Positions 7,470 to 28,141 of a stretch of 64,000 nt of DNA are shown piece after piece. The notes beneath the pieces are model-generated. The model was not told the origin of the DNA. It searched no databases and saw only the letters and a program-made list of their open reading frames with translations. The DNA is from Vulcanimicrobiota bacterium (GTDB lineage Bacteria > Vulcanimicrobiota > Vulcanimicrobiia > Vulcanimicrobiales > Vulcanimicrobiaceae). The stretch covers positions 1,824,001 through 1,888,000 of the forward strand of contig CAVTCS010000003.1 of the NCBI GenBank assembly GCA_963733295.1, in the 5' to 3' direction. Positions within the stretch are counted from its first letter, which is position 1; the number at the start of each line of letters is the position of its first letter. The translations under genes were made by a program, and so were the position numbers.

Positions 7470-7501
7470 ATGCTAGGCGACGGGGCGTCCTCAAAACGTC
7501 C
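7470..7501 (-). promoter_or_regulatory. Shared promoter motif copy 1: GGACG-ttttga-GGAC-N11-TAGCAT
   Basis: 11-bp-period direct repeat followed by a -10-like hexamer upstream of the paralog operon. Matches three other copies. Confidence 0.75.
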
Positions 7502-7652
7502 CGCAGCAAACAGCGCGACTGCGGCAGCATTGCCGGTCCCGCAACTTGAATTTGCGCCGATCGAAAATCCGGCCTTATCAGGAATCGCACACTTGCCTGA
7601 GGCGCACTCATGCGGAACGCCTGACGCGGATGTTGCAAGTGTTGACGGCGGA

Positions 7653-7668
7653 TGTGATCTGGAACACA
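7653..7668. promoter_or_regulatory. CRP/FNR-family-like operator TGTGA-tctgga-ACACA
   Basis: One mismatch to the TGTGA-N6-TCACA core, located in the divergent intergenic region. Confidence 0.55.
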
Positions 7669-7721
7669 ATTTTGCGCGACCACGCGCAGTAGGGCATCCG
7701 TCGCGGCGGGGTACTTCGTGA

Positions 7722-7761
7722 GAAAGCGCCGCGCGCGAAGTCGCACGCGGCGGGCGTTTTT
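7722..7761. terminator. GC-rich hairpin with flanking T tracts (terminator-like)
   Basis: Minus strand CGCCGCGTGCGA-CT-TCGCGCGCGGCG followed by CTTTCT. Plus strand followed by TTTTT. The transcript it would terminate is unclear. Confidence 0.35.
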
Positions 7762-7858
7762 AAATAGGCCGAGAGTGCAGCTCGTCCGACGTGCTCCTCG
7801 ATTGCGTGATCGCGCCTTGCGAGTCCGAAAGCGCGTGCAGCGATCCTAGCGCAGCATT

Positions 7859-7897
7859 GTCAAGGAATGGTGAAGAGATCGTCAAGGAATTTTCAAC
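7859..7897 (+). promoter_or_regulatory. 11-bp-period direct-repeat array GTCAAG/GTGAAG/GTCAAG/TTCAAC (OmpR-type box)
   Basis: Hexamers start at 7859, 7870, 7881 and 7892. Confidence 0.55.
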
Positions 7898-7956
7898 GTC
7901 GCTTTCGCGCGCGTGTTTCCGCTTGGAATGAATGCGAGCAAGCGACGAAACGGCGA

Positions 7957-7987
7957 GGACGTTTTCAGGACACTTGCGGTGTAGGAT
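7957..7987 (+). promoter_or_regulatory. Shared promoter motif copy 2: GGACG-ttttca-GGAC-N10-TAGGAT
   Basis: Upstream of the AGGAGG RBS of SLT-A. Confidence 0.75.
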
Positions 7988-8010: not shown

Positions 8011-8574
8011 ATGGCTTTATTGAGCGTCGCTCAAGTTGCTGCCAAGGGCGCACAGCAGCGCCCGGACTTTAAGATTTCGTGGCGCCCGGCGCTAGCCGCG
8101 TATGCGGCACAATATACGGCTGCAGCGAAGGCAACCGATCTCGTGCAGCCGTGCATGCTGGCCGCGATCGTCTGCCGGGAAACCGGCGGACAGAATATTT
8201 TGCAGATCGGCATGCCGCCCGGCGCCGGCTGCGGGGTCGGCTTGACCCAGATTACGAGCGGCGTCGACTGGAGCGTCTCGAGCGCTCCAACCTATCCGGG
8301 CTACGGACCGCTGCTCGACCCGCAAACGAACCTTAAGGTCTGCGCGGTCGAGTTTCTCGAACCGCTTCTCAACATGTTTTCCGACAATCACATCGCGGCA
8401 TTTGCCGCGTACAACGTCGGTGCGGGCAACGTGCAAGAGGAGCTCAAGGAAGGGGTCAGTCCCGACGCCTGGACGACGGGGCACGACTATGGGACGTCGG
8501 TCTTCGAGTCGTGGATCAACTTCACCGCGGCCTCGTGCGGCGACAACGTCGACTGGGCCAGCTACAAACCCTAA
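8011..8574 (+). CDS. Lytic transglycosylase, SLT/GH23 family (copy A)
   Basis: AAIVCRETGG (catalytic Glu), GVGLTQI, DPQTNL and AAYNVGAGNV motifs. AGGAGG RBS. No signal peptide. Confidence 0.85.
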   Translation: MALLSVAQVAAKGAQQRPDFKISWRPALAAYAAQYTAAAKATDLVQPCMLAAIVCRETGGQNILQIGMPPGAGCGVGLTQITSGVDWSVSSAPTYPGYGPLLDPQTNLKVCAVEFLEPLLNMFSDNHIAAFAAYNVGAGNVQEELKEGVSPDAWTTGHDYGTSVFESWINFTAASCGDNVDWASYKP

Positions 8575-8588
8575 TCCCGGAGGTCGGC

Positions 8589-9530
8589 ATGACCGGACAG
8601 ATCGGAAGCATTCTCGACGCCGCGCTCGTCCTCTCCGCGCTCTTTGTCGCCCTGAGTTGCGTTTGCTCGTTCGTCAACGAGCAGATCGCCGCGCTCTTGA
8701 GTTGGCGCGGACAAAAGCTCTACCTCGGCATCTTGAATTTGGTGAGCGGGACGGTGCCGCTGGTCGACGCCGTTTTTGCACATCCCTTGCTCGATGCCTC
8801 GTCAAACGACAAGAGCGGAATCTACCGCAAGAACTCGCCCAACCGGCCGTCCTACGTCGACGCGCGCAATTTTTCGATGGCCTTCTGGCAGAGCGTGCTC
8901 GCGGGCAAAGCCGCCCTGCCTGCCGGCTCGCCGGCTGTGGGCGCGGCCGCGACGGCCATCGTTACCGAGCCCAAAGTGTTTCTCGATGCGGTCCGCCAGA
9001 ACGCCCAAGCGATTCCCGACGAATCGCTACGGGCCAGCGTCTCCTCGCTGCTCGTTACCGCCGGCGACGACTACGAGAAGTTGCTCAAGGCCACCGATGC
9101 GTGGTTCAACGCCCAGATGGATCGCGTCTCGGGCTGGTACCGCCGGCAAACCCAGTACGTGCTGATCGGCATCGCCGCGATCGTGGTCATCGGCACGGGG
9201 CTGGACAGCATCGAGATCGGCAAGCATCTCTACGCCACGCCGATTGCGCTCAGCGCGGCCGCCGCGTCGATTCAGGGCGCCTTCCCGAACGGACAAGCCG
9301 ATCCGGCGAAACTGCAAGCGGCCTACACGACGGTGCTGGCGGGTGAAAACATGCAGCAGTTCCTTCACCCGCTCTTCCAAGATTTCGGCACGCACTATCC
9401 CGGCATGATCGCAACGTTAATCGCGCTTTCGCTGGGAACGCCGTTCTGGTTCGACGCACTGGGCAAACTCGTCAACGTCCGGATGGCCGGCGCCAAGCCG
9501 CCCTCCGCCCCTTCCTCTTCATCGACATAA
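8589..9530 (+). CDS. Conserved uncharacterised membrane protein
   Basis: GGAGG RBS before ATG 8589. Hydrophobic N-terminal helix, PSYVD, WFNAQMDRVSGWYRR and SLGTPFWFD motifs, about three TM segments. Confidence 0.8.
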   Translation: MTGQIGSILDAALVLSALFVALSCVCSFVNEQIAALLSWRGQKLYLGILNLVSGTVPLVDAVFAHPLLDASSNDKSGIYRKNSPNRPSYVDARNFSMAFWQSVLAGKAALPAGSPAVGAAATAIVTEPKVFLDAVRQNAQAIPDESLRASVSSLLVTAGDDYEKLLKATDAWFNAQMDRVSGWYRRQTQYVLIGIAAIVVIGTGLDSIEIGKHLYATPIALSAAAASIQGAFPNGQADPAKLQAAYTTVLAGENMQQFLHPLFQDFGTHYPGMIATLIALSLGTPFWFDALGKLVNVRMAGAKPPSAPSSSST

Positions 9531-9547: not shown

Positions 9548-10333
9548 ATGGCTCTTTTAGAAGGTTCGGGCGACGGCAGTTCCGTCGACGCCGGCACGAC
9601 TGATCCCGGTCCGAGCGACGGTGGCGCCGTCGCCGGAACGACGACCACAACGGTAGCGACCGACGGATCGAGCGACGCGGGTTCGAGCGACACGAGTTCG
9701 AGCGACGCGTCGACCACCACGCCGAGCGATGCGGGTTCCACCGACGCGTCGACCGCCACGACAAGCGACGCGGGTACGCCGGCGGCGCCCCCGATCGACT
9801 ATTCGGTCATGGTCGCGATTCCAACCGGCATCAACGACGGGCTCAGCTCGGCAGATCAGGCCACGATGCTGAACGCGCTGGGAAATCCGGGAACGCCGGA
9901 TCCTGGCTGCGGGCCGTCCTCCGCGGCACTGCAAAAACTCATGAAGACCGCGAGCGTTGGGCCGTTCCGCGTCACCGGGCTCGGCCCCGCAGTCGACGCG
10001 CTCACCCGCGTCTTCGCTGCCGTGCAGAGCGCCGAACCCGCGCTCTACAACCTGCTCGGAACGCAAGGTATGCTGTGCGTGCGCTACGTGCGCGGCTCGA
10101 CGACGAACTTCTCGAATCACTCGTGGGGAACCGCGATCGATCTCACGATCGGCGGCGTGCTCACACCGCGCGGCTCGACGACCGTCTCGCAAGGGCTGCT
10201 CAGCCTGTGTCCGTACATGCACGCCGAGCAGTTCTTCTGGGGCGCGGGCTTTAGTCCGACGCCCGACGGCATGCACTACGAAGCGTCGAACGAGCTCATC
10301 ACGCAGTGGAAAGCGAACGGGAGCATTCCATGA
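9548..10333 (+). CDS. M15-family peptidoglycan peptidase with acidic Ser/Thr/Asp-rich N-terminal tail
   Basis: R...SNHSWGTAIDL and DGMHYE Zn-binding motifs. Confidence 0.85.
   Translation: MALLEGSGDGSSVDAGTTDPGPSDGGAVAGTTTTTVATDGSSDAGSSDTSSSDASTTTPSDAGSTDASTATTSDAGTPAAPPIDYSVMVAIPTGINDGLSSADQATMLNALGNPGTPDPGCGPSSAALQKLMKTASVGPFRVTGLGPAVDALTRVFAAVQSAEPALYNLLGTQGMLCVRYVRGSTTNFSNHSWGTAIDLTIGGVLTPRGSTTVSQGLLSLCPYMHAEQFFWGAGFSPTPDGMHYEASNELITQWKANGSIP
9668..9712 (+). repeat. 3 x 15-bp tandem repeat TCGAGCGACRCGNNN (SSDxx)
   Basis: Direct inspection of the sequence. Confidence 0.7.
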
Positions 10334-11484
10334 GCGCGGACGAAACCGTCGCGAGCGACGGCGGCGTAACAACCGACACTTCCCCGAGCGACACGTCGAT
10401 ACAAGACGCCGGCGCGGCGGACCCATCCGGCGCACCGGTTTCGAGTTCGAGCGACGCCGCGTCGAGCGACGCGACGTCGAGCGACACGAGCACGAGCGAC
10501 ACGACAACCGATGCGCCGAGCGGCACACCCTCCGCAACGGCGACGATCGGCGGCTGGAGCGACGCGGTTGCGGGCGGCTGGAACGGCGCCGAACGCGGCG
10601 TCGGCAACGTGCGCCGCATTCCGCTCCAAGGGCTCAAACAAGTCAATCAGGATCCCGCGCCCAATCCCGCGACGGCCGAATCGGCGGCCGGTCGCGCCAT
10701 CCTGATCGTCCCGGCCTCGCTCGATGCGTCGCAACCGGTCGACGTGCTCTTACATCTGCACGGGCACAACATCGGCTACCGGCAGCGCGTCGCATCCAAT
10801 CTGCCCGATGCGGCCAGCGTGCGCGACGTGCTCGTCGATCAGATCGAAGATCAACTCGACCGGTCGGGGCGCGCGATGATCGCCGTGCTGCCGCAAGGCA
10901 CGCTCGTCTCCGGCTTCGCACCGAGCGGCGCTCTGTTCGACTGCGACTCGTTTCTCGATGAGGTCCTGAGCGCAGCGGTCACGGCGGGCGTGTGGTCCGC
11001 GGCGCCGACGGTTGCGCGCGTCGTGCTTTCCGGGCACAGCGGCGGCGGCAACACGATCGGGCCGATGGCGGGCCAGTCCGGGCAGCCACGCCTCCCCTCG
11101 AAGATCGAGGCGATGTTTCTGTTCGAGGCGATCAACGGAACAAACGAGCTGGCGGGGATCACGACCTACGTCACCCAAAAGCTCAATGCCGATCTAGCGG
11201 CTTTGGGAAGCGCCTCCGATCAGCTTGACTACCTCAAATCGAGCTTCCGTTTCCGCGGTGTGTACAACACGCAGGACGACTTCTACGCAACCAACTACGC
11301 GACGCTGACGCAAACGATCGCGGCGTGGTTCGCCAAGAACGCGGCTGCGCTCGGCGGAAAAGGCTCGGATGCCTACAACGCGTTCGCAGCGAACTACGTC
11401 GTCGTCAACCCGAACCCGTTCGTCGTTCACGACGGCCTCTTGGGCTCCGGGAACTTGCTCCTCGCCTTAGGGACGCTGCCATGA
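10330..11484 (+). CDS. Alpha/beta hydrolase-fold protein with acidic Ser/Thr/Asp-rich N-terminal tail
   Basis: ATGA overlap with the previous gene. LLHLHGHN, GHSGGG nucleophile elbow and C-terminal His (VVHD). Confidence 0.8.
   Translation: MSADETVASDGGVTTDTSPSDTSIQDAGAADPSGAPVSSSSDAASSDATSSDTSTSDTTTDAPSGTPSATATIGGWSDAVAGGWNGAERGVGNVRRIPLQGLKQVNQDPAPNPATAESAAGRAILIVPASLDASQPVDVLLHLHGHNIGYRQRVASNLPDAASVRDVLVDQIEDQLDRSGRAMIAVLPQGTLVSGFAPSGALFDCDSFLDEVLSAAVTAGVWSAAPTVARVVLSGHSGGGNTIGPMAGQSGQPRLPSKIEAMFLFEAINGTNELAGITTYVTQKLNADLAALGSASDQLDYLKSSFRFRGVYNTQDDFYATNYATLTQTIAAWFAKNAAALGGKGSDAYNAFAANYVVVNPNPFVVHDGLLGSGNLLLALGTLP
10447..10506 (+). repeat. 4 x 15-bp tandem repeat (T/A)CGAGCGACRCNNNN (SSDxx)
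   Basis: Same unit as 9668-9712. Confidence 0.7.
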
Positions 11485-11831
11485 GCGTGCAATCGACCCA
11501 GACTAGTGTCGAGATCGAATGGGACGACAGCGTCGTCATCATCTTCTCCTTTGCCGGTGCTGACGGCAAGATCTATTGCGGTTTTCCGCACGTCGTGCCG
11601 GCGTGGCAGAATCAGACCGGAACTCAGACGCAAGTCTCGGCAACCGTGCAGAAAATTCAGCAATCCGCGATGCAGATCAGCGGCGACCCAGGGACATGGG
11701 TCGAGACGGTCAAGCAAGGCGCCAGAAACGGAAAGATCACCGTCGTCTACGACGATTCGACCAACACGAACTACACGACGCAGACCGGGCAGCCATACCA
11801 GCTGCAGATCTTGTACAGTCTCACCGGTTGA
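11481..11831 (+). CDS. Small hypothetical Thr/Gln-rich protein (116 aa)
   Basis: ATGA overlap with the upstream stop. Composition resembles the rest of the operon. Confidence 0.75.
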   Translation: MSVQSTQTSVEIEWDDSVVIIFSFAGADGKIYCGFPHVVPAWQNQTGTQTQVSATVQKIQQSAMQISGDPGTWVETVKQGARNGKITVVYDDSTNTNYTTQTGQPYQLQILYSLTG

Positions 11832-11866
11832 CCCCCACGGGCCGGCCCGTTTCGACGCGCCGCTAA

Positions 11867-18057: not shown

Positions 18058-18073
18058 AAATGGGAACCGGAAC

Positions 18074-18526
18074 TTAGATGCCGGCGGGTGCCCGAGACGC
18101 GTCCGCCAAGGTCAAGGCCTTATCGCTTCGACGCGCAAGTTCGGTGAATCTTGGATTCCGTTCGACGTTGAACGAGAACTTATAGCCGAAACGTCGTAGC
18201 GTGTGCAAAAATGGTCCGCATTTTACGTCCTCCTCGATTTTCATCCGCAGGCGACGGATGTGAACATCTAATGTACGGTCACCTCCCTCGAAATCATATC
18301 CCCAAACTAGATCGAGAAGACGCTCGCGCGACATGGCTACACCAGCGTTCGAAGCGAGCGCGACCAACAGGGAAAACTCGCGCGGTTTGAGTTGAATCGC
18401 TTGACCTAACACGCGAACCTCTCTGGCTATTTCATCGATTTCGAGCGGTCCAAACTGCATAAGGAGTTGCGCGCTGTTTCGTTCAGGGCACGTCGGTAGT
18501 GACGGACGCATCAGGTATCGCTCCAT
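18074..18526 (-). CDS. Stand-alone OmpR-type winged-helix DNA-binding protein (no receiver domain)
   Basis: LKPREFSLL...SRERLLDLVWG...RTLDVHIRRLR...GYKF. Confidence 0.85.
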   Translation of the reverse strand: MERYLMRPSLPTCPERNSAQLLMQFGPLEIDEIAREVRVLGQAIQLKPREFSLLVALASNAGVAMSRERLLDLVWGYDFEGGDRTLDVHIRRLRMKIEEDVKCGPFLHTLRRFGYKFSFNVERNPRFTELARRSDKALTLADASRAPAGI

Positions 18527-18627: not shown

Positions 18628-21249
18628 CTAAACCAGACCGTGTTCTCGGGCGATTCGAGCCGCCTCGATTCTCCCCTTACATCCGAGTTTTCTCAAAATC
18701 GCCTTTACGTGAGTATCTACTGTGCGAGGGCTTCGGTTGAGTTCGACCGCAATCGACTTGGTAGATCGACCCCTAGTAAGCGTTTGAAGTATCCGCATTT
18801 CGGTTGGAGTCAGGCCCGAGAGTCGATGCTGCACGCCAACACGCGTGACGGCGAGACTGTCCATGAGTAATGCAAAGCCGCCTAAGCCGCTCGATCGAAG
18901 ATCGCTAAGCGCTGCTTCAAATTCGTCGTTAGTTGATCCATTCGCGTTGGCAGAGAAAATCATTGCGACACGCCAGAGAAAGTAGAGGCCTGTCGTCTTG
19001 AGCAATCGTGAGCGTTCGAGCGTTCGTAGCCGTTCGACCCCCTGTCGTGGCCGACCGATTAGCGCATAAGTGACCGATAAGAGTAGCGTTGCCTTCACGA
19101 TTCTGTTCGAAAACCGCTGCCCAACATTTAGACCCGATTCGAGGTTCTCAATCTCTAACAGTTTCAGCTTCGCCTGTTCCCACAGGCCTGCCGCAGCGGC
19201 GTAAAGAGCAATCTCTGTGCGACGCAAGAATTGTTGTTCGAGGTTCGCATGAACATATGCGCTAGCGCCAAGTAAATCGCACGCGTCTTGATATTTCCCG
19301 TGCCATGCGAGCTGCATTGCCTTGGCGGGCAAAAGCGTCTCCTGCCACCGCGGATCGGAACGCCCTTCCAAAACATCCAATTTAGCCTCTAACTCGGAAA
19401 ATGCGTGTTCGTCACCACGCTCACTAGCGAGATCGCAGAGGCCCATCAGAGCGACCCGCGCTACCGCTGGGTCCCCAGCTAACTCGGCACATTCGAGCAT
19501 TCGAAGCAGATTCTCGGTCGTTCGTTCCTGATCTCCAGCCTCGCTGGACACGTTCGCTAGCGTTGAGTATGCACGCGCGGCTAGGTTATGAAGTCCATCC
19601 TGCTGCGCGACGGCAACTGATTTTGAGGCACAAGCCCTCGCCGTGTCAAATTTCCCAGCTCGAGTTGCGACGAATGCAGCGCTGTTAAGAACTGTAACCT
19701 CGAGTGCAGTGTCGTTTAAATGACAAGCTAAGTTTAGCGCGCGATCAATAGACTGGTTGGCAAGTTTGTGTTTGCCGCTTGCGCTTTGCGCAGCTGCTAA
19801 GGTTGCTGCCACGCGGCACCTCAGTCGACGATTACAAACCGATGCAAGCGGAATTGAGCCAAGGACGCGGCAGGCCTCCAAATGTCGATATTGGTTAATA
19901 AGTGACACAGCCGATCTTTGGGCAAAATCAGCTCGCTGGTCGCCACTACATTTCTTTACAATGCTGCTGAAAATCGCGTTCGAGGCTTCGAAGCGGCCCA
20001 GTCTTGCAAGAACCTCTGCCCTAAGGCCCGATAGTTCTATCCGATCTTTTTCGCGGTTAAAGTGGTCCGAGAACAGCTGTTTTCGCACTTCTTCAAGGAA
20101 CCCACGGTCCAAAAGACGCTGACCATGCTCGATCAAGACTCGCTCGACATCGCCAAACTCGTCTGCGTCTGCGTAAATCGAGAGCGCTCGCTCCATCAAT
20201 CCGCCCGACTCCAGTATCTGAGCTGTCTTGCGGAGAGTTGCCCGATACTCACTTCCGCCACGAAGCTTTAGTTGAAACTCCAGAAACGCGCGAAACAAGT
20301 CTTTATACTGATAGATATGCTCCGAAGCGTGATCTATCAGCGCCGTCTCCTTTTGCAATCGGAGGACCGTTGCAGCCGCGTCATCGTATCCGGCTTTACT
20401 GAGCATTTCAACTTCAATGTGCGGGAGCAAAGACGTGTCGCTCAAGAAACGTTGGTCACTCTTGTCTAGAGGATCAAATACCTGCTGAGCGATGTAACTG
20501 TAAAGGAGTTCGCGGGCCGCGGTGACGGCTTCTTGGACGTTTCTAGATCTGACAAATGCCGCCAAAGCGAAGGAAGTGGCAGCGGGCCATCCATCCGAGA
20601 AAGAAAAAAGAGCCGATGAAGCTTCATCGCTCAACTCGAGACGCCAAGAGGCCGCAATTTCGTGCATCTCTCTCGTTGTCAGGCGCAGATCGTATTCGTC
20701 AATCGGCAGACCAGCTGTTCCTTGCGCGAACCACGTCGCCATCGGCAGATCAAGGGAGCTGCGCGTCGCCAACACCCACCGCACCGAGGCCGGGGCTAGT
20801 TCGACGATTTCCGAGATCAGGTCACCGACACCGCACCGCCGCATGGCTCGATGTAGATCATCGATGACAATCGTGCCGTTCGCGTCGCTTAATGTGACCG
20901 CCAACTCTTGGAGCAAGTCCCTGCGGTGGTCACCACAGCCTCCGAAGGATCGCGGATCGTTGCGCGGGGCTGCCGCACTGGACCGCGTCTTGAAGCATGC
21001 TAGGAGGTCTTCGAGGAACCTTACGTGGTTCGCGTGCTCTTTGCGCACCTTTAACACGCCGAGCAAAGCAACGTGCTGCTTCACAAACTGATCCAATACG
21101 GTGGATTTCCCGAAGCCGGCTGGTGCCGCGATTACAGTTACCCGCGATCGCGTTGCCGAAAGCAGCCGTCTCAGGAGTCGATCCCGGTCTATGGCGACAA
21201 AATATGTACTGAACTCCGGTCTAAGTCGCGAAGACACCAAGCCGTCCAT
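18628..21249 (-). CDS. MalT-like LuxR-family regulator (P-loop ATPase, TPR-like region, LuxR HTH)
   Basis: APAGFGKS Walker A, IVIDD Walker B, GWPA, C-terminal LTPTEMRIL...TVDTHVKAILRKLG. Confidence 0.9.
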   Translation of the reverse strand: MDGLVSSRLRPEFSTYFVAIDRDRLLRRLLSATRSRVTVIAAPAGFGKSTVLDQFVKQHVALLGVLKVRKEHANHVRFLEDLLACFKTRSSAAAPRNDPRSFGGCGDHRRDLLQELAVTLSDANGTIVIDDLHRAMRRCGVGDLISEIVELAPASVRWVLATRSSLDLPMATWFAQGTAGLPIDEYDLRLTTREMHEIAASWRLELSDEASSALFSFSDGWPAATSFALAAFVRSRNVQEAVTAARELLYSYIAQQVFDPLDKSDQRFLSDTSLLPHIEVEMLSKAGYDDAAATVLRLQKETALIDHASEHIYQYKDLFRAFLEFQLKLRGGSEYRATLRKTAQILESGGLMERALSIYADADEFGDVERVLIEHGQRLLDRGFLEEVRKQLFSDHFNREKDRIELSGLRAEVLARLGRFEASNAIFSSIVKKCSGDQRADFAQRSAVSLINQYRHLEACRVLGSIPLASVCNRRLRCRVAATLAAAQSASGKHKLANQSIDRALNLACHLNDTALEVTVLNSAAFVATRAGKFDTARACASKSVAVAQQDGLHNLAARAYSTLANVSSEAGDQERTTENLLRMLECAELAGDPAVARVALMGLCDLASERGDEHAFSELEAKLDVLEGRSDPRWQETLLPAKAMQLAWHGKYQDACDLLGASAYVHANLEQQFLRRTEIALYAAAAGLWEQAKLKLLEIENLESGLNVGQRFSNRIVKATLLLSVTYALIGRPRQGVERLRTLERSRLLKTTGLYFLWRVAMIFSANANGSTNDEFEAALSDLRSSGLGGFALLMDSLAVTRVGVQHRLSGLTPTEMRILQTLTRGRSTKSIAVELNRSPRTVDTHVKAILRKLGCKGRIEAARIAREHGLV

Positions 21250-21549
21250 TTGCGAAGGGGATGAATCTTTACGGCAGCGATACTGCCACGACCTACCAGC
21301 GCTGAGTGGCTGAGCATCAACGAGCGTGAACTCGCGTCCTTCGTTTCCGCGCTGTTAACAGACGCTTTCTGTCAACCTCACTGGCGAGGCACTGCCGGCC
21401 GCCGAACGGCGCCCGCGCTCCATCTATGCATTCGAGCGCGGATCGACCCTAAGCTCGAGCGAAAAATCTCTGCCGAGCCGTCGCAGAATAAGAATGGGCC
21501 GAGAAGGTTGTCTTCAACAATTCTTTCCCACGCACCGCGTCACCAGATC

Positions 21550-21852
21550 TCAAGATGATTGAGATGCTTGTAGGAGCGTGACGTTGCCCTGTAGATATCG
21601 GGTGACGGCGGTTGGCGAAATCGTCAGTGGAAGTTGTGGACATGGTCTTGGCCAGACTACGATCGAGTAGGAACCTGATAGTATCACGTCCTGCTTTTTC
21701 GATTGGGCGAAGCACGGCGCGAGCTCGTTGGGTTTCACTAAGATCCCCGTATAAGTGTAGATTTGTCCGTTCGACTTTAGCTGCACTTGAGCCGTCGACC
21801 CGATGGGTGGACTGGCGATCGCTAGGATGAGAGTCAGCGCGAGCGCGTACAT
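21550..21852 (-). CDS. Small secreted hypothetical protein
   Basis: Signal peptide. Start overlaps the upstream stop (TAATG). Confidence 0.6.
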   Translation of the reverse strand: MYALALTLILAIASPPIGSTAQVQLKSNGQIYTYTGILVKPNELAPCFAQSKKQDVILSGSYSIVVWPRPCPQLPLTISPTAVTRYLQGNVTLLQASQSS

Positions 21853-22528: not shown

Positions 22529-23876
22529 CTAGGGCCGGGCGAGCGCGAAGCCTTGCAAGAAGGCCCACGCGACTTGCGGGCCATCCACGTCGCCGTGACT
22601 CGAAATGAAGGCGTCGCCCTTCAGATTGCGGATGAGCTTCCCGGCGGGAAGCGCAGCATACGAAGCCGCGCCGTCGAGCAAGGTGTCGTCGAAGGCTTCG
22701 TCGGTCTGCTCGGCGCCGCTGGCGCCCATTCCGCCCCACTCGCTGTTCGAGGTATCCGGAGTATCGATCGTCGGAAGAGCCGAGGCCGAATCGCGCGCGA
22801 TGAAGGACGCGATCGGATAGGCGCCGCCGACCGCCCAGTCGTGCGAGCTGTGCGTGATCTGAATGATGTCGCGCACCTTCTTCTTCGTCACGACGTCTCG
22901 GAATGCGCCGATCGGGCGGCTCCCATCCGGGGGCGCCGGTGCAAGGCCGTAGTGCGAGTACGCCGCCTGAAGCAGCGACATCGTCCGGGCTTGCACGCCA
23001 TCCGGCAGCGCGTTCGCAAGCGAGGTGACGAGGCGCCCCCCGAAGCTATGTCCGACGAGATGCACCCGAAGCGACGGTTTTGCTTGGAGCGCTTTTGCGA
23101 TGAGCGGCGCGGCGCCGTTCTGACCGACGGTGCCGGCCCTTTCCTTCATGACGTAGTACGTCGTGAGGTTCAGGAGCATGTTCGCAGCCTGCTGCACCGC
23201 CGCGATCGGATTGAACCCCGCGGCGCCGCCGCTCGAGGTCGCGACGGCCGAAACGCCCAGCTGCGTTTGAATGTTCTGGAGGATCTGCGATCCGCTCGAG
23301 CTCGCGAGAGCGCCCGCGCCCGGGTCAAGACCACCGTCCGGTTCACCGGTAGTTTTCGGGAACAGCGCCGTCAGCGCCGCGACGTACGCGTTTTGACCCG
23401 CGGGGCTGTCCAGCAGCCGGCACTTGCTGGAGGGCCGTGTTGAGGAGTTGCTGTTCGGCCGGCCCGAACTGACCGAACGCGTCCTTGAGATTCGCAATCT
23501 GCGTCGCGATCGCTGCGCCGTAGTCAGTCGGAGCGGGATCTTGAACCGCAGCTGCGCCTCCCGGGATCAAGTCGCTCTCGTCGAACCGCTTGGATGGCCA
23601 ATACAGCGCGACGACGCCCGTGCGTTGCTGATCCGCCGAACTCAGTCCCGCGGCGCTCCACGCCTTGGCAACGCTCGTGAAGAAGCCGCTGTACAGGGCG
23701 CGCGCCTCGTCGATGTCGTTGTTCCAGCCGTGCGAGATCACGATCAGGTCGTCGATGCCCGGGAGCATCGCCGCGATCGCGGCTTCGGCTCCCGTGCCGT
23801 CGATTGCGCCGAGCGGCGTGATTGCGGCGTTCTTATCGAACGGGACCTCGACGGTCGCAAACGGATCGAAGTTCAT
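22529..23876 (-). pseudogene. Alpha/beta hydrolase, split by an extra base near 23417
   Basis: N-terminal part SHGWNND...LYWPSK. C-terminal part TYYVMKERAGTVG and HLVGHSFGGR. Frames join at CCG-G-CTG. Confidence 0.75.
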
Positions 23877-23888
23877 GTCATCCTCTCG

Positions 23889-25742
23889 CTAGACTGCCTG
23901 AATCGCGCGCATCACGTCGACCAGTCCCGAACCTTGAAACGCGCGGTCGCGCTTGAGATCCGTGGCGTTGTCGACGAACAGCGCTTTGACGGTCTCCGGC
24001 TGCCCGATGTACTCTCTGCGAATCGAAAGAAAGCTTGCGATGAGGCCCGAGACGTGCGGCGCGGCCATGCTCGTTCCCGAGTCTTCGCGGTAGGTGTAAC
24101 CGTCGGCCGGAACCGTCTTCGTCGTTCCGTCCGGATTCGAGATCGTCACGGGGAGGCGACTCTGCGCCGATGCGCACGAGATGATGCGCTCGCCCGGCGC
24201 GACAAGGTCGGGCTTCATGCGGCCGTCACCGGTCGGACCCTTCGACGAGAAGTACGAAATGCCGTACAGATGCGGCTCTTCGCGATGGGTCGAGCCGACC
24301 GTGATCGCCAGGTCCGCGTTCCCCGGATCGTTGATCGTTTGGGCGAGCGTTGCGGCCCAGCCGCCCAGATACGCACTGCTCAACGTGCCGTAGCCGGAAT
24401 TGCCGGCGGCCGTTACGACGACGACCCCGGAGCGGACGAGCCGGTTCACCTCGACGCACAGCGGACTCTGGCCGCAGGCAAACCACTTCGCGTCGAACGG
24501 ATACCCGACACTCAGGTTCACGCCCGCGATCACGATGCGGCGTCCGTACGAGTTCAGCTGTTGAATCGCTTCAAACGCGTCGATGATGGTCGAGACCTGG
24601 CCTCCACCTTGGTTGTCGAGAACCCGCATGCTCACGAGTTTGCATTTCGGGGCCATGCCGGTGATCACGGGCGGAAATTCGAGGGCGCGCTCGTCGGCGC
24701 CGGAGCCGTTGCGCGACATGCGCAGGATCGTCGCTCGCGGGGCGGGATCGGCCGCGGGCGGAGCGGTCCAGCTTCCCGCAATGATGCCGGCGACGTGCGT
24801 TCCATGTCCGAACGCATCGACGACGGCGCCCGGATCGTCCTTGGTCACGTCGGTCGACGGCGGCAGCGTTCCGCTGAAGTCGCGATGGCGTAGCGGACGC
24901 ACCGGATCGAGGACGAGGTTCCCATTTTCCTTGAAGTGCGGATGCGTGACATCGATGCCTGAATCGAGGACGGCCCAGACGATTCCGACCCCAGAGGCGC
25001 TGTAGGCGACGTGCGCCGCATCGGCTTTCACCGTTGCGATCGACTTCGTGATGAGACCCTGCACGCGACTGTCTTCCCAAATTTGGTGAATCGCGACCGG
25101 GCCGGTCCCCGGATTGCGATCCAGATCGACGAGCCCACGGATCTGTGCGCCGGTCATCGTCGCGAAGACGTACGGATGCGATGCGTCGTCGTTGGCCCGG
25201 TACCGGATCGGACTGCCCGACCGCGTGGCTAACACCTCGATGCAACGGACGACGCTTTGGCGTGCGGCCTGCGTCCCCGCCGAGTGCGCCGCGTTCAAGA
25301 CGATGATGCAGTCAAACGTGTCGTCGGGCGAGTTTCGGATCTTCGAGGCCAGCGGCTCGGAGATGATTCGCTGAACGAGCTCCTCGGGATTGAAGACGCC
25401 GGTCTCGTCCAAGATCGATTGGTCGCGACGGAACTCGACGGGCAGCCCCGCTTCGAGCTGCCCGTCGAGCGCGAGGACATGCGCGCCGGTCAGCGTTGCG
25501 TACAGATACGGAGAATCCGACTGTGCGCCGCTCCAGGTGATGCCCTCTGCCTGCGCGAGCTGGAGGGTCTGCATCGCCGATGCGACCTTCTGCAGCGTCG
25601 CACCGATATTGCCGTATCCGCTCGCCGGATCGACGTTTGCCGCCGGAACGACCCGCACCACGACCTTGAAGCACGCGGCCGGCGTCTGATGCGCGAGATC
25701 GCGAAGCGGCTGAGTGATCCGGCTTCCGTTGACGTCGTTCAT
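23889..25742 (-). CDS. S8 family subtilisin-like serine protease with N-terminal prodomain(s), no signal peptide
   Basis: Catalytic triad motifs VLDSG, HGTHVAG and GTSMAAPHV, plus AAGNSG. Confidence 0.92.
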   Translation of the reverse strand: MNDVNGSRITQPLRDLAHQTPAACFKVVVRVVPAANVDPASGYGNIGATLQKVASAMQTLQLAQAEGITWSGAQSDSPYLYATLTGAHVLALDGQLEAGLPVEFRRDQSILDETGVFNPEELVQRIISEPLASKIRNSPDDTFDCIIVLNAAHSAGTQAARQSVVRCIEVLATRSGSPIRYRANDDASHPYVFATMTGAQIRGLVDLDRNPGTGPVAIHQIWEDSRVQGLITKSIATVKADAAHVAYSASGVGIVWAVLDSGIDVTHPHFKENGNLVLDPVRPLRHRDFSGTLPPSTDVTKDDPGAVVDAFGHGTHVAGIIAGSWTAPPAADPAPRATILRMSRNGSGADERALEFPPVITGMAPKCKLVSMRVLDNQGGGQVSTIIDAFEAIQQLNSYGRRIVIAGVNLSVGYPFDAKWFACGQSPLCVEVNRLVRSGVVVVTAAGNSGYGTLSSAYLGGWAATLAQTINDPGNADLAITVGSTHREEPHLYGISYFSSKGPTGDGRMKPDLVAPGERIISCASAQSRLPVTISNPDGTTKTVPADGYTYREDSGTSMAAPHVSGLIASFLSIRREYIGQPETVKALFVDNATDLKRDRAFQGSGLVDVMRAIQAV

Positions 25743-25838
25743 GAGCAGCTGCGGCGACCCCCCGAACTCAAACGCGTAACCAGAAGCCGGTACATACCGC
25801 TCGTTTCCCCAAGGATGTACACCGGAGCCTCTCCGTGT

Positions 25839-26399
25839 CTAGAATTTGAAGTTCGTCCAATCGGCCGTGTCGCCCATCGATGCGGCCGTGAAGTCGATCC
25901 ACGATTGGAAGACGGCGGCGCCGTAATCCTGTCCTGTCGTCCAAGCGTCGGGGCTCAAGCCTTGTTTGAGCTCTTGCTGCACGTTGCCCGCGCCGACGTT
26001 GTACGCGGCAAACACCGCGAGATGATTGTCGGGGAACATGGTGAGCAGCGGCTCGACGAATTCGTGCGCGCAGACGCGGAGATTGGTTTGCGGATCCAAG
26101 AGCGGTCCGTAACCCGGATACGTCGGTGCGGACGAAACGCTCCAGTCGACGCCACTTGTGATCTGCGTCAAGCCGACACCGCAACCGGGCCCTGGCGGCA
26201 TGCCGATCTGAAGGATGTTCTGGCCGCCGGTTTCGCGAGCGACGATCGCCGCAAGCATGCAAGGTTGGACTAGGTCGGTTGCTTTCGCTGCAGCCAAATA
26301 TTGCGCGGCGTACGCTTGCAGCGCGGGGCGCCACGGAACGTTGAAAGCCGGGCGAAGCTGCGCGCCTTTCGTGGCGATTTGAGAAACGGTCAATACCAT
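25839..26399 (-). CDS. Lytic transglycosylase, SLT/GH23 family (copy B)
   Basis: About 80% identical by eye to 8011..8574, with the same motifs and the same CAGGAGGTAAACCGC leader. Confidence 0.85.
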   Translation of the reverse strand: MVLTVSQIATKGAQLRPAFNVPWRPALQAYAAQYLAAAKATDLVQPCMLAAIVARETGGQNILQIGMPPGPGCGVGLTQITSGVDWSVSSAPTYPGYGPLLDPQTNLRVCAHEFVEPLLTMFPDNHLAVFAAYNVGAGNVQQELKQGLSPDAWTTGQDYGAAVFQSWIDFTAASMGDTADWTNFKF

Positions 26400-26421
26400 G
26401 GCGGTTTACCTCCTGCCGCCG

Positions 26422-26452
26422 ATGCTAGTCCGCCCGCGTCCCAAAATCGTCC
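26422..26452 (-). promoter_or_regulatory. Shared promoter motif copy 3: GGACG-attttg-GGAC-N10-TAGCAT
   Basis: Upstream of SLT-B. Confidence 0.75.
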
Positions 26453-26476
26453 TCGCTCTGAAAACTTAACCCAGCC

Positions 26477-27889
26477 CTACGCTATTGCGGCCATACCCAA
26501 AGCAGCCTTGATCGCGATAATGGCAATCGGGACACCGACGTCCTTTGCTACGCCGAGGAGCCACGTGCCGCTCCGCTTGAGCGCCTCGAGAATCTTCGAC
26601 CGATTGTTCGAATCCGAGGCCGCCTTGGCGGCTGCAAGATCCTCGGTCGCTTCTTTCTTTTCGGGACCGTCGGGCAAAGTCGCAAGATGGCTCTGCAACT
26701 TTTCGAGTTCGCCGCTGAGCTCCGTCAGGTTGATGTTGTCGATCGTCGTGACATTGGTCTTCGAGATTGTCCCCTGATTGTCGACGTTCACCTGAACGTC
26801 GGAGGAATTTTGCAGGTTAAAGTTGTTCACGATGTCGCCTTTTCGGGAGTACAGGGCATCCGCTCTGCTTCGCAATGAGGGATCGGCCTTTTCCAGGCTT
26901 TCTAAGATTGAGTCGCGCCGACCTGGATCGATCGCGTCGCTGACCGCGAGTGAAAGATCGGCGAGCTCGCGGTCTTTTCCGGCCAACTTCCGGGTCGTAG
27001 ACTCGCTCTTCCCTATACGAACGAACGACTCAAGTAAGCAGTCCGTGAAGACCTTGGAATCACCGGAGATTCTAGCCGACGTCAGATTGTCGAGCAGTAA
27101 GCCCAGACACTCGTATTCTTCGTGGAGCCTCACGAGACTCAAGCGAAGGTGACGTGCGACGGTTCGATCGAAGCCGGGCTTTAACGTCGCAACCCACATC
27201 GGGAAGCGTGCCTTCTTCAGCGATACTTCCCGGTATTGAATCGCGAGCCCGAACTCCGCGCGCAGAGGCGGACCCGGGCGCCCGCGATAGGGGAACTCGA
27301 TCGCCTCGCCTTCGAGCCGCTCGAGATAAAGCACGGGGCGCCCGGCCTCGACCCACCAAGAAGGCGACGGGCGCGACGCAACGGCGCTTTTCTTCGTCGT
27401 TGCGCGATAGTAGAGACAACGCAGCGGATCGACGGCAGAGGCTACGTCGCAAAGAGTTCTTTTTCCGAACGCGTCGCTTATCGATAGGGGTGTGGCGAGA
27501 AAATCTTCGATGAACTTCGTGGTCGCTTCGGCGTCGAGGCTAATTGGCTCTTGCGCCGGTCCCGCGTTGGTCAGCGCAAGGCCGACTTCGAATCGCGCTG
27601 CCAAGCGTCCATCGAAATATAACCGACGAAACGCGAAATGCCGGCGCAAGGTGCTGCCGTTCTTGAACGGGCCGAGGCCGACGAAACGGATCCCTCGGTC
27701 CGCGACGCAGAAAGAGTCTTCACCCCAACCGTTGAGGCCGCCGCGCGGGCGATGCATGATCGCCCCGAGGAAGCGAACGTATTGCTTTCCCTCGAGCGGG
27801 AAAGGCCACCCTGGCCGATCGAGACGACCGGTCGGTTCATCACCCAGGTGACGAAGGTCCGCGATCGGATAGTGAATCGTGATGAGCAT
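26477..27889 (-). CDS. Hypothetical protein (470 aa) with Asn-rich linker and C-terminal helical/amphipathic domain
   Basis: Long ORF. C-terminus LKRSGTWLLGVAKDVGVPIAIIAIKAALG. Confidence 0.75.
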   Translation of the reverse strand: MLITIHYPIADLRHLGDEPTGRLDRPGWPFPLEGKQYVRFLGAIMHRPRGGLNGWGEDSFCVADRGIRFVGLGPFKNGSTLRRHFAFRRLYFDGRLAARFEVGLALTNAGPAQEPISLDAEATTKFIEDFLATPLSISDAFGKRTLCDVASAVDPLRCLYYRATTKKSAVASRPSPSWWVEAGRPVLYLERLEGEAIEFPYRGRPGPPLRAEFGLAIQYREVSLKKARFPMWVATLKPGFDRTVARHLRLSLVRLHEEYECLGLLLDNLTSARISGDSKVFTDCLLESFVRIGKSESTTRKLAGKDRELADLSLAVSDAIDPGRRDSILESLEKADPSLRSRADALYSRKGDIVNNFNLQNSSDVQVNVDNQGTISKTNVTTIDNINLTELSGELEKLQSHLATLPDGPEKKEATEDLAAAKAASDSNNRSKILEALKRSGTWLLGVAKDVGVPIAIIAIKAALGMAAIA

Positions 27890-28110
27890 CCACCACCGTC
27901 ACCCTAGTGATGAGACAAATGCCCCACGCGACCGAGCGCCATGGAGCTACCCTTCTTTTGCATAAGCTGTGCGCCACCGATGCGTTAACACCAGCGGTGG
28001 ATCCCTATCGTAGCGGCTTATTGACGGGCAGTCAACTTGGTGGAGGGGCGACCGGCGAGCAAAGCCGGTGCACGAAACGCGCCGCAAATGGCTGAGAAAA
28101 CCGCCGATGT

Positions 28111-28141
28111 GGACGATTCGAGGACGGTCGCGCGCTATCAT
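28111..28141 (+). promoter_or_regulatory. Shared promoter motif copy 4: GGACG-attcga-GGAC-N10-TATCAT
   Basis: Upstream of the metalloprotease gene. Confidence 0.7.

What the first reader, a model, noticed from the sequence alone, without database searches (positions are those of the whole stretch)
7470..28141. One promoter motif links four dispersed transcription units into a single candidate regulon
Seen: GGACG-N6-GGAC-N10/11-TAnnAT lies immediately upstream of, and in the sense orientation of, the four-paralog operon (7470-7501 -), SLT operon A (7957-7987 +), SLT operon B (26422-26452 -) and the metalloprotease (28111-28141 +). Two copies sit before genes unrelated to SLT, so the SLT duplication alone does not explain it. 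Established: 11-bp-period direct repeats ending about 8 bp before the -10 hexamer is the geometry used by SARP/AfsR-type OmpR-like winged-helix activators. Inference: paralogs, wall hydrolases and proteases form one co-induced, undescribed system. In-window candidate activators are 18074..18526 and 18628..21249.
Basis: partly seen in the sequence, partly recalled or inferred. Interest (0 to 1): 0.88.

Follow-up and report, generated by a model that had tools for sequence, protein, structure and literature searches.

The report
Shared activator-type promoter links hydrolase island
Four gene groups in an uncultured soil bacterium (cell-wall hydrolases, proteases and large unknown proteins) carry the same unusual promoter, built like the activator-dependent promoters of Streptomyces antibiotic clusters, so they are probably switched on together.

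Summary
GGACG-N6-GGAC-N10/11-TAnnAT occurs four times in the window (0 expected). These are its only occurrences in the 3.44-Mb genome, and each faces a gene start.

The motif is under selection. It is kept before the orthologous SLT, metalloprotease and MbnB-like genes of the sister genome G001. A metagenome contig with a different gene order keeps it before three units.

The housekeeping -35 here is a normal TTG. The repeats therefore look like a binding site for a tandem winged-helix activator that stands in for the -35. The geometry is that of SARP boxes (PMC10936776).

The activator is not identified. In relatives, 16 of 120 motif sites lie within 4 kb of AfsR-like SARP genes, against 1.5 expected. 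This favours a SARP encoded elsewhere (C3:1358234-1361692) over the in-window receiver-less wHTH and LuxR-STAND pair.

"Four paralogs" is only partly right: 765, 780 and 756 aa are paralogs, 704 and 612 aa are not detectably so. That operon occurs in many phyla, in some of the loci examined next to caspase-like or S8 proteases. Its function is unknown.

No expression data could be obtained.

The parts
7470..7501 (-). Promoter P1: GGACGTTTTGA-GGACG-N10-TAGCAT, before the large-protein operon (704 aa first)
   Evidence: A matching site lies before the 704-aa orthologue in metagenome locus L177.
7957..7987 (+). Promoter P2: GGACGTTTTCA-GGACA-N9-TAGGAT, before SLT operon A
   Evidence: Conserved in G001 and L175/L177.
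26422..26452 (-). Promoter P3: GGACGATTTTG-GGACG-N9-TAGCAT, before SLT-B and the S8 operon. It is a duplicate of P2 that includes the ribosome-binding site.
28111..28141 (+). Promoter P4: GGACGATTCGA-GGACG-N9-TATCAT, before the metalloprotease
   Evidence: Conserved in G001 and L177 while the upstream flank is unrelated.
7858..7901 (+). Second array with 11-bp period (TGTCAAGGAAT / GGTGAAGAGAT / CGTCAAGGAAT / TTTCAACGTCG), starting 99 bp upstream of P2. Possible second operator.
   Evidence: A similar AGTCAAGnAAT array lies upstream of SLT in L177. The two-unit pattern is unique in the genome.
5291..7405 (-). 704-aa protein, first gene of the large-protein operon; no known family
   Evidence: Homologue present in 56 of 78 related loci.
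3452..5290 (-). 612-aa protein; no known family
   Evidence: Homologue present in 59 of 78 loci.
1139..3436 (-). 765-aa protein: N-terminal domain of about 280 aa with no match in the PDB, then a low-complexity linker and C-terminal beta-sandwich repeats
1..1112 (-). 5' part of a 780-aa paralogue of the 765-aa protein. The gene runs past the window start. A 756-aa paralogue and 329- and 312-aa genes follow outside the window.
8011..8574 (+). SLT-A lytic transglycosylase, 187 aa
   Evidence: Pfam SLT 3.9e-09
8586..9530 (+). 314-aa membrane protein. Homologues lie just upstream of the 704 operon in other Eremiobacterota loci.
   Evidence: L046, L048, L056
9548..10333 (+). Peptidase_M15_4 (D-Ala-D-Ala carboxypeptidase-like) with a low-complexity N-terminus
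10306..11484 (+). 392-aa protein with a low-complexity N-terminus and a GHSGGG motif (esterase-like by inspection; no family hit)
25839..26399 (-). SLT-B, 81% identical to SLT-A
23889..25742 (-). Peptidase_S8 subtilase, 617 aa
   Evidence: Pfam 1.5e-43
22529..23876 (-). alpha/beta-hydrolase gene split over two frames (177 + 322 aa). It is intact (463 aa) in metagenome locus L176.
28197..29504 (+). 435-aa zinc metalloprotease-like protein (HETGH). The Pfam Reprolysin_5 and NCBIfam M6 hits are both weak and below their cut-offs.
18074..18526 (-). Stand-alone OmpR-type winged helix, 150 aa, no receiver domain. Candidate activator, unproven.
   Evidence: Trans_reg_C 2.6e-25. 51-62% identical to the DNA-binding domain of a conserved response regulator.
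18628..21249 (-). LuxR-family STAND ATPase (AAA_16/AAA_22, TPR, GerE), 873 aa, MalT-like. Candidate sensor or regulator, unproven.

Best explanation
The four sites are real sigma-70-type promoters that depend on an activator. Two 11-bp direct repeats (GGACG + W-T-T-Y-N-R) fill the space where a -35 would be. They end 9-10 bp (counting the 5-base GGACG; 10-11 bp counting GGAC) before a TAnnAT -10. A winged-helix activator of the SARP/OmpR kind would bind them head to tail as a dimer and recruit RNA polymerase, as AfsR does at the afs box. All units that carry the box would then be induced together: the large-protein operon, the SLT / membrane protein / M15 / esterase-like operon, the SLT-B / S8 / lipase-like operon and the metalloprotease. 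Outside the window the same box precedes an MbnB-like enzyme and two small hydrophobic ORFs. Shown: the specificity, position and conservation of the box, and the genomic linkage of the gene sets. Inferred: binding, activation and co-expression. The activator is most likely an AfsR-like large SARP encoded elsewhere (best candidate G000:C3:1358234-1361692), about 0.4 within this reading. The in-window receiver-less wHTH is second, about 0.25.
For: Specificity:
- 4 hits against 0 expected in the window, and these are the only 4 in the genome.
- The relaxed box GGACGNTTNNNGGAC gives 8 hits against 1 control in G000.
- The genome's ordinary -35 is cTTG at -24 from TAnnAT (8 observed, 0.8 expected). 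GGACG is therefore not the general -35.

Conservation:
- The box is kept before G001 orthologues of SLT, the metalloprotease and the MbnB-like gene. For the metalloprotease the flanks are unrelated.
- In metagenome locus L177, three boxes precede SLT, the metalloprotease and the 704-aa gene, in a different gene order.

Real promoters:
- In relatives the strict pattern gives 27 hits (the 4 in G000 included) against 1 control in 41 genomes.
- 10 of the 23 hits outside G000 have a start codon of a long ORF 5-7 nt after the -10, which points to leaderless mRNAs.

Geometry:
- The spacing equals the published SARP rule: repeats 11 bp apart, 3' repeat 8 bp from the -10 (PMC10936776 Introduction).

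SARP link:
- 16 of 120 boxes lie within 4 kb of a BTAD hit against 1.5 expected, in 9 genomes. Without the unpublished G009 and G020 this is 11 of 107.
- In G010 four boxes flank a 1190-aa SARP, and one of them precedes a 63-aa ORF, an arrangement like AfsR/AfsS.
- All 5 box-adjacent SARPs tested hit G000 C3:1358234 best, at 38-49% identity.

Functional linkage independent of the box:
- M15 and esterase-like homologues lie within 10 kb of the large-protein operon in L044 and L045.
- The membrane-protein homologue lies just upstream of the operon in L046, L048 and L056.
Against: - There is no RNA or transcription-start evidence of any kind.
- No box lies near any SARP gene, the conserved response regulator, or the in-window regulators in G000 or G001. 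No autoregulatory link therefore names the activator in this genome.
- G000's AfsR-like protein is only 38-49% identical to the box-adjacent SARPs. Its recognition helix (NLRRNIYLL) differs from most of theirs (NLRRHLYRL).
- Adjacency in relatives could mean that SARP genes are targets of the factor and are not the factor itself.
- In G001 and in locus L176 the S8 operon has no box. Its membership in the regulon rests on the SLT-B duplication in G000 and on assumed co-transcription.
- Other Eremiobacterota drive the 704 operon from a TTGGCA-N17-TAnnCT promoter without the box. The regulon as described is therefore confined to this genus-level lineage.
Confidence: 0.6

Rival explanations
1. The in-window pair is the control module. 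The LuxR-STAND ATPase (18628-21249) senses a signal. The receiver-less wHTH (18074-18526), which would be constitutively active like an isolated PhoB effector domain, binds the GGACG repeats and activates the four promoters.
For: The pair lies between the units in G000 and next to the S8 operon in G001, with both genes conserved at 57% and 53-54% identity. OmpR-family domains bind direct repeats with a 10-11 bp period (established knowledge). Its closest curated families are the cell-envelope regulators MtrA, CseB and WalR/YycF, which fits wall-hydrolase targets. wHTH-type and LAL-type regulators are known to work together as fused SARP-LAL proteins (PMC5930380, title and abstract seen in the listing).
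Against: The same box is abundant in G005, G010 and G015 (10-11 each), where only paralogues of the STAND protein at about 30% identity, or none, are found and no receiver-less orthologue was seen. There is no box upstream of the pair. The composite metagenome cluster L176/L177 shows no regulator between or beside the units as far as the contigs reach. The recognition helix is of response-regulator type and unlike that of the box-adjacent SARPs. The pair has atypical GC (52-56% against 64%), which suggests a history separate from the family-wide box.
Confidence: 0.25
2. A classical two-component response regulator binds the box. The candidate is the conserved MtrA/WalR-like regulator from which the in-window wHTH derives (G000 C3:1023507-1024187, with an adjacent kinase-like gene). 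The regulon would then be an envelope-remodelling response.
For: This regulator is present in every relative examined and is 60-74% identical between genomes. WalR and MtrA control peptidoglycan hydrolases through direct repeats (established knowledge, recalled, not from a call).
Against: No box was found within the roughly 3.3-kb loci around this regulator in the 10 relatives examined (L003-L012), nor within about 2-3 kb of it in G000. The regulator is universal, but the box is abundant in only six of the 41 genomes. The box associates with SARP genes instead.
Confidence: 0.1
3. The motif is the promoter of an alternative or ECF sigma factor and is not an activator site.
For: GGAC resembles the GGAAC -35 of ECF promoters (recalled).
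Against: The first GGACG ends 20-21 bp before the -10, which is too far for a -35/-10 pair. The second repeat is as conserved as the first. The -10 is sigma-70-like TAnnAT, not CGTC-like.
Confidence: 0.03
4. The similarity is historical only. A promoter cassette was copied during the rearrangement that duplicated SLT, and there is no shared regulation.
For: P2 and P3 are clearly duplicates, down to the ribosome-binding site.
Against: P1 and P4 share only the motif positions with P2 and P3. The motif positions are kept while spacers diverge in G001 and L177. Further copies lie at unlinked loci.
Confidence: 0.02

Closest known systems
SARP boxes of Streptomyces (for example the afs box bound by AfsR at the afsS promoter)
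   Same: Two direct repeats with an 11-bp period overlap and replace the -35. The 3' repeat lies close to the -10: 14-15 bp from repeat start to the -10 here, 15 bp for a heptamer plus 8 bp. The -35 is poor. The boxes drive clustered accessory genes. In relatives the box flanks large wHTH-BTAD-NTPase-TPR genes and small adjacent ORFs, as with afsR and afsS.
   Different: The conserved core is GGACG, not the Streptomyces repeat sequences. The organism belongs to Eremiobacterota, not Actinomycetota. The targets are hydrolases, proteases and unknown large proteins, not antibiotic synthesis genes. No SARP gene lies in this cluster, and binding is untested.
Pho boxes bound by PhoB/PhoP (OmpR family)
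   Same: Tandem direct repeats with an A/T-rich spacer and an 11-bp period replace the -35 just upstream of the -10 (established knowledge, recalled).
   Different: None of the 8 G000 boxes precedes a phosphate-related gene. The distance to the -10 fits the SARP rule slightly better.
SARP-LAL / LAL cascades of polyene clusters (PimR-type)
   Same: A wHTH regulator and a large ATP-binding LuxR-family regulator occur together beside the genes they might control (listing, PMC5930380, title and abstract only).
   Different: Here they are two separate genes. The wHTH has no BTAD domain, and the LAL keeps its LuxR HTH. No evidence connects them to the box.
Holin-endolysin cassettes and type 10 secretion
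   Same: Peptidoglycan hydrolases (SLT, M15) with no evident signal peptide are encoded beside membrane proteins and co-regulated with large cargo proteins. A 61-aa ORF with two hydrophobic segments (judged by eye) carries the same box elsewhere in the genome.
   Different: No holin or spanin family was detected. No phage genes are nearby: the only PHROG lysis hit is a weak endolysin match for SLT. Signal peptides were judged by eye only.

Membership tests
SARP-dependent promoter (SARP box) | Direct repeats spaced by 11 bp (or 22 bp) | tested here: met
   GGACG starts are 11 bp apart in all 4 window sites and in the orthologous sites of G001 and L177. Rule as quoted in PMC10936776 Introduction.
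SARP-dependent promoter (SARP box) | The 3' repeat lies 8 bp from the -10 element | tested here: met
   From the start of the second repeat to TAnnAT is 14-15 bp, which equals a 7-bp repeat plus 7-8 bp.
SARP-dependent promoter (SARP box) | Weak or absent -35 | tested here: met
   At 17 bp upstream of the -10 lie the T-rich spacer and the first repeat, with no TTG, by inspection. The genome's ordinary promoters show cTTG at -24.
SARP-dependent promoter (SARP box) | Bound and activated by a protein with a SARP domain (wHTH + BTAD) | not testable with these tools
   Indirect only. 16 of 120 boxes in relatives lie within 4 kb of BTAD genes against 1.5 expected. None does so in G000 or G001.
OmpR/PhoB-family response regulator (for ORF 18074-18526) | Trans_reg_C winged-helix DNA-binding domain | tested here: met
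   PF00486, 2.6e-25, residues 41-117
OmpR/PhoB-family response regulator (for ORF 18074-18526) | N-terminal receiver domain | tested here: not met
   The ORF is 150 aa with only about 20-40 residues before the DNA-binding region (homology starts near residue 20, the Pfam domain at residue 41). Only 101 bp separate it from the upstream gene. The G001 orthologue has a 145-aa open frame.
SARP (for ORF 18074-18526) | BTAD domain after the wHTH | tested here: not met
   No BTAD hit. The 7 BTAD hits of G000 all lie elsewhere. The recognition helix is of response-regulator type.
LAL / MalT-like STAND regulator (for ORF 18628-21249) | N-terminal P-loop NTPase, TPR-like sensor region, C-terminal LuxR (GerE) HTH | tested here: met
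   AAA_22/AAA_16, TPR_12 and GerE 8.4e-16. The MalT equivalog scores 128.8 bits against a cut-off of 537, so it is MalT-like but not MalT.
Pho regulon | Boxes precede phosphate uptake or scavenging genes | tested here: not met
   Genes downstream of the 8 G000 boxes are hydrolases, proteases, unknown proteins, an MbnB-like enzyme and small ORFs.
Bacterial gasdermin or other known pore-former (for the 765-aa paralogues) | Fold similarity of the N-terminal domain to a solved pore-forming domain | tested here: inconclusive
   Model pLDDT 81.8. Foldseek against the PDB gave no match at E<=0.001. VIA-align wide gave a best Z of 4.7.

The most novel reading that the evidence does not exclude
The box marks a previously undescribed cellular system. 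It would be an inducible island in which signal-peptide-less wall hydrolases and small membrane proteins open the envelope. Proteases (S8 and metalloprotease here, caspase-like C14 or S8 in some loci of other phyla) would process a set of large beta-sandwich proteins whose N-terminal domain has no solved relative. These would act as a multi-component toxin or pore-like cargo released by controlled lysis or a type-10-like route. The cargo would be exchangeable: G001 carries two unrelated large proteins, with a weak MACPF/CDC lead, under the same box at the same position. The core operon is spread over more than ten phyla, including Methanosarcinales.
Probability: 0.2. Interest if true: 0.8.

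Novelty: new member of a known kind. Interest (0 to 1): 0.55.

Why it matters
Nothing is known about gene regulation in Eremiobacterota, a widespread and almost wholly uncultured soil phylum. This would be a concrete activator box, conserved across a family, with a defined small regulon. It suggests that SARP-type 'sigma adaptation' promoters operate well outside Actinomycetota.

The box also acts as a functional label. It ties cell-wall hydrolases and proteases to a seven-gene operon of unknown large proteins that recurs from Paenibacillus to cyanobacteria and archaea. That operon thereby gains its first testable context: protease-linked, inducible and envelope-directed.

Tried and rejected
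Searches that found nothing:
- RNA evidence: no RNA holder was listed for window:3000-12000.
- Earlier findings of this scan: none for this genome.
- Rfam: no family reaches its gathering score anywhere in the window.
- Metagenome scan with the LuxR-STAND protein: 198 pattern matches, none a relative. The second scan, with an SLT alignment, gave 3 loci.
- Literature: full-text search for 'Eremiobacterota' plus 'promoter' gave 11 papers (8 listed), none on such a motif judging by title and abstract.

Function of the large proteins:
- No hit in Pfam, NCBIfam, PADLOC or PHROGs.
- No PDB sequence hit with E below 0.1.
- ESM Atlas returned only unnamed clusters.
- The whole-protein fold matches only generic Ig/macroglobulin-type repeat proteins, with TM-scores of 0.13 or less.
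- The N-terminal domain has no clear fold match.
- For the G001 cargo protein, the Atlas gave MACPF and Thiol_cytolysin clusters at 0.85. That is a lead only.

Looking for the activator:
- No box near the in-window regulators.
- No box near G000's seven BTAD genes or its conserved response regulator.
- No box near that regulator in 10 relatives.
- A four-repeat array at C3:1352715 lies inside a nitrilase-type gene and was set aside as chance.

Other points:
- One-mismatch scans of the genome are dominated by noise: 1329 hits, 182 with A/T-rich spacers.
- The 704-aa protein was not found in the 40 species-representative relatives at E<=1e-10, although metagenome and genome-collection loci hold it.
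- My own crude gene caller missed the low-GC regulator genes, so 'intergenic' labels are rough.


Full report
**1. The observation**

The pattern GGACG-N6-GGAC-N10/11-TAnnAT matches four times in the window, at 7470-7501 (-), 7957-7987 (+), 26422-26452 (-) and 28111-28141 (+). None of 100 dinucleotide-preserving shuffles gave a match.

The window is G000:C3:1824001-1888000 of a 3.44-Mb, 64% GC assembly. Over all 17 contigs the full pattern matches only these four places. Each site points at a gene start:
- P2 and P3 lie 22-23 nt before the two SLT genes, with AGGAGG between.
- P4 lies 55 nt before the ATG at 28197.
- P1 lies 64 nt before the ATG at 7405.

With exact repeats and a looser -10 (TAnnnT) the genome has 6 hits against 0 for the backwards control. 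With one mismatch allowed it has 17 against 5, so degenerate copies are mostly noise.

**2. Not the ordinary promoter**

I took 177 TAnnAT hexamers from 1051 upstream regions, using my own rough gene calls. The only strongly placed upstream word is CTTG at -24 (8 observed, 0.8 expected). That is a normal TTGnnn -35 with a 17-18 bp spacer. GGAC is not generally enriched, so the repeats are a specific signal.

The first GGACG ends 20-21 bp before the -10. This is too far for a -35, which argues against an alternative-sigma reading.

**3. More copies in the same genome**

The relaxed box GGACGNTTNNNGGAC gives 8 hits against 1 control in G000. The four outside the window are:
- C3:874785 (+), 5 nt after whose TCCCAT starts a 486-aa MbnB/TglH/ChrH-family protein (Pfam 3.2e-30).
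- C3:647387 (+), before a 61-aa ORF with two hydrophobic segments judged by eye.
- C3:27190-27226 (-), which counts twice. It is an array of four GGACG units at 11-bp period before a 35-aa hydrophobic ORF.

**4. Conservation**

G001, of the same genus, has a syntenic region. It holds the wHTH (57% identity) and the LuxR-STAND gene (53%). These are followed by S8 and the alpha/beta-hydrolase, one SLT operon, and the metalloprotease.

Boxes precede the SLT operon and, 63 bp away on the other strand, the metalloprotease. A third box, directly after the metalloprotease, precedes two large proteins (594 and 449 aa) that have no homologue in G000.

In pairwise alignments the box and the -10 are kept. 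For the metalloprotease the upstream flank is unrelated. The MbnB-like gene of G001 also keeps its box.

A metagenome contig, L177 (proteins 81-94% identical to G000), has a different order: 765<-612<-704<-[box] metalloprotease<-[box] [box]->SLT. Three units there each have their own box. The box therefore travels with each unit.

Two limits on this:
- The S8 operon has no box in G001 or in locus L176. In G000 it gained one through the SLT-B duplication.
- In other Eremiobacterota loci (L044-L046, L056) the 704 operon has a TTGGCA-N17-TAnnCT promoter and no box.

**5. The box in relatives**

In 41 genomes of the class, the strict pattern gives 27 hits (the 4 in G000 included) against 1 for the backwards control. 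Of the 23 hits outside G000, 10 have the start codon of a long ORF 5-7 nt after the -10 (L015, L016, L018, L019, L021, L025, L027, L030, L032, L036). This is the signature of leaderless transcripts, so the -10 is genuine.

The relaxed box gives 108 hits against 21 controls. Six genomes hold 58 of these hits: G000 8, G001 11, G005 10, G009 8, G010 11, G015 10. G009, G020, G022 and G036 are flagged unpublished. The counts for G009 (8 relaxed, 2 strict) and G020 (4) rest on them.

**6. Which factor?**

The geometry is that given for SARPs: direct repeats 11 bp apart, with the 3' repeat 8 bp from the -10. AfsR binds two 11-bp repeats at -40 to -19 that overlap a poor -35 (PMC10936776, passages of Abstract and Introduction read). 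Here the second repeat starts 14-15 bp before the -10.

BTAD (SARP) genes are common in these genomes, with 7 hits in G000. Of 120 box sites (relaxed plus strict), 16 lie within 4 kb of a listed BTAD hit, against 1.5 expected from random placement. These fall in 9 genomes: G005, G009, G010, G015, G017, G018, G020, G032 and G040. The BTAD coordinates were typed from the 150 listed rows; 16 further rows were not listed. Without G009 and G020 the figure is 11 of 107 in 7 genomes.

In G010 a 1190-aa wHTH-BTAD-NTPase protein is flanked by four boxes, and one precedes a 63-aa ORF. G040 has box, then a 69-aa ORF, then a SARP. This recalls afsR and afsS.

All five box-adjacent SARPs tested find their best G000 match at C3:1358234-1361692 (1152 aa; 38-49% identity over the SARP domain). 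This gene has the same neighbours as the G010 gene, an M16 peptidase and a membrane protein.

Against this reading:
- No box lies near that gene or any other BTAD gene in G000.
- Its recognition helix differs somewhat from the others.
- Adjacency could mean that SARP genes are targets and not the binder.

**7. The in-window candidates**

ORF 18074-18526 is a 150-aa Trans_reg_C protein without a receiver domain. Its nearest relatives are the DNA-binding domains of a response regulator conserved in all relatives: 55-62% identity to the regulators of other genomes and 51% to G000's own copy at C3:1023507-1024187. L003, L006 and L009 come from unpublished genomes. Its best curated families are MtrA, CseB and YycF.

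ORF 18628-21249 is an AAA/TPR/GerE STAND protein and is MalT-like below the cut-off. Only G001 has an orthologue (54%). Other genomes have paralogues at about 30% identity, and G015, which has 10 boxes, has none at E<=1e-20.

Both genes have low GC, 52-56%. No box precedes them. Their position makes them reasonable candidates, but the family-wide box does not depend on them. I rate this reading at 0.25.

**8. What the regulon encodes**

The products are as follows:
- SLT (twice, 81% identical).
- A 314-aa membrane protein.
- Peptidase_M15_4.
- A 392-aa esterase-like protein.
- Peptidase_S8.
- A split alpha/beta-hydrolase.
- An HExxH metalloprotease.

By inspection none has a signal peptide. 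This was not run through a predictor.

The large-protein operon runs from 7405 past the window start. It encodes proteins of 704, 612, 765, 780 and 756 aa, then 329 aa, then 312 aa. The last has a weak SQHop_cyclase_N match: the full-sequence score is above the Pfam cut-off, but no single stretch passes on its own.

A profile of the 765-aa family scores the 780-aa protein at 2e-71 and the 756-aa protein at 2e-57. The 704- and 612-aa proteins score only 0.5-0.8. There are therefore three paralogues and two unrelated large proteins.

The 765-aa model (pLDDT 80) has C-terminal beta-sandwich repeats that match only generic Ig/macroglobulin-repeat proteins. Its 285-aa N-terminal domain (pLDDT 82, with two 20-residue hairpin strands) has no PDB match: no Foldseek hit at E<=0.001, and a best VIA Z of 4.7.

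**9. The operon elsewhere**

The 765-aa family has 118 database relatives and 78 loci in species genomes. These come from Eremiobacterota, Acidobacteriota, Alphaproteobacteria, Paenibacillus/Cohnella, cyanobacteria, Actinomycetota, Bacteroidota and Methanosarcinales. Of the 78 loci, 56 also hold the 704-aa homologue and 59 the 612-aa homologue, in the same order.

I annotated seven loci for neighbouring genes:
- A Peptidase_C14 gene follows the paralogues in Paenibacillus L070.
- Three C14 domains flank them in Saprospiraceae L107.
- A Peptidase_S8 gene precedes them in Sphingomonadales L049.
- The other four (L062, L079, L117, L068) showed no protease family.

M15 and esterase-like homologues (81% and 70% identical) lie within 10 kb in L044 and L045. 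The membrane-protein homologue lies directly upstream of the operon in L046, L048 and L056. The link between large proteins, hydrolases and proteases therefore has support that is independent of the box.

**10. Mechanism proposed**

Shown: a specific, conserved box in promoter position, and genomic linkage of the gene sets.

Inferred: a winged-helix activator binds the two repeats as a tandem dimer, substitutes for the -35 and induces all units together.

More speculative: the products act together on the cell envelope. The wall hydrolases and small membrane proteins would open it. The proteases would process the large proteins. The large proteins would be an exchangeable cargo, since G001 carries different ones under the same box. 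The only lead on these is a weak Atlas similarity to MACPF/CDC clusters at 0.85.

**11. Verdict**

The regulon idea and the SARP-like architecture are supported by conservation and by comparison with relatives. The proposed in-window activators are neither confirmed nor excluded, and they are less likely than a SARP acting in trans.

This is a new member of a known kind of promoter and regulon, in a phylum where none has been described. A full-text search for 'Eremiobacterota' plus 'promoter' found 11 papers (8 listed), none relevant by title or abstract. It controls an island whose main cargo is of unknown function.

Noticed in passing
window 7858-7901 (+); L177 6982-7025: A second direct-repeat array with an 11-bp period (nGTCAAGGAAt, 3-4 units) starts 99 bp upstream of the SLT-A box, in helical phase with it in G000. 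A similar array precedes SLT in metagenome locus L177. G001 has none. It may be an operator for a different winged-helix protein.
   Followed up: partly
window 22529-23876 (-): The alpha/beta-hydrolase after the S8 gene is split over two reading frames (177 + 322 aa) in G000, and likewise in G001. It is one 463-aa ORF in metagenome locus L176. This could be a shared frameshift, a pseudogene or recoding.
   Followed up: partly
window 7408-7428 (-): A six-codon mini-ORF (MAHGRY) with a strong GGAGG lies between promoter P1 and the 704-aa gene and ends 2 nt before that gene's ATG, which has no good ribosome-binding site of its own. This may be translational coupling or a leader peptide.
   Followed up: no
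window 18000-22000: The wHTH and LuxR-STAND genes and their upstream region have 52-56% GC against about 64% for the genome. My codon-usage gene caller skipped them.
   Followed up: partly
G000:C3:874785-876282; G001 L131: A fused MbnB/TglH/ChrH-family (DUF692) protein of 486 aa carries the same box, with its ATG 5 nt after the -10 (leaderless). This is conserved in G001. A RiPP-type modifying enzyme may belong to the regulon.
   Followed up: partly
G000:C3:27190-27226 (-) and C3:647387-647648 (+): A four-unit GGACG array precedes a 35-aa hydrophobic ORF. A single box precedes a 61-aa ORF with two hydrophobic segments (by eye). These are possible holin-like or peptide products.
   Followed up: no
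L153 (G010:C1:4117300-4121453); L015 (G040); L148 (G005): AfsR-like large SARP genes are flanked by GGACG boxes, with small ORFs of 63-80 aa directly under a box. This is an afsR/afsS-like arrangement outside Actinomycetota.
   Followed up: partly
L044, L045, L046, L056 (about 100-170 nt upstream of the 704-aa homologue): Other Eremiobacterota drive the same operon from a conserved cCTTGGCAA-N16/17-TAnnCT sigma-70-like promoter and not from the GGACG box. The promoter has been replaced within one phylum.
   Followed up: partly
L042:1547-5333 (G001): Under the third G001 box lie proteins of 594, 449 and 214 aa that are absent from G000. The first two share an RPWLxxD(x6-7)WY motif. The only lead is a weak Atlas similarity to MACPF/Thiol_cytolysin clusters (0.85).
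   Followed up: partly
window 26477-27889 (-): A 470-aa protein with no family hit and a hydrophobic C-terminus lies between P3 and P4 in G000 only. In G001 the two promoters are 63 bp apart.
   Followed up: no
window 11506-11943: The 145-aa + strand ORF after the SLT-A operon is probably spurious. Its matches in locus L176 fall on the strand opposite to the operon, where a 116-aa ORF is open.
   Followed up: partly
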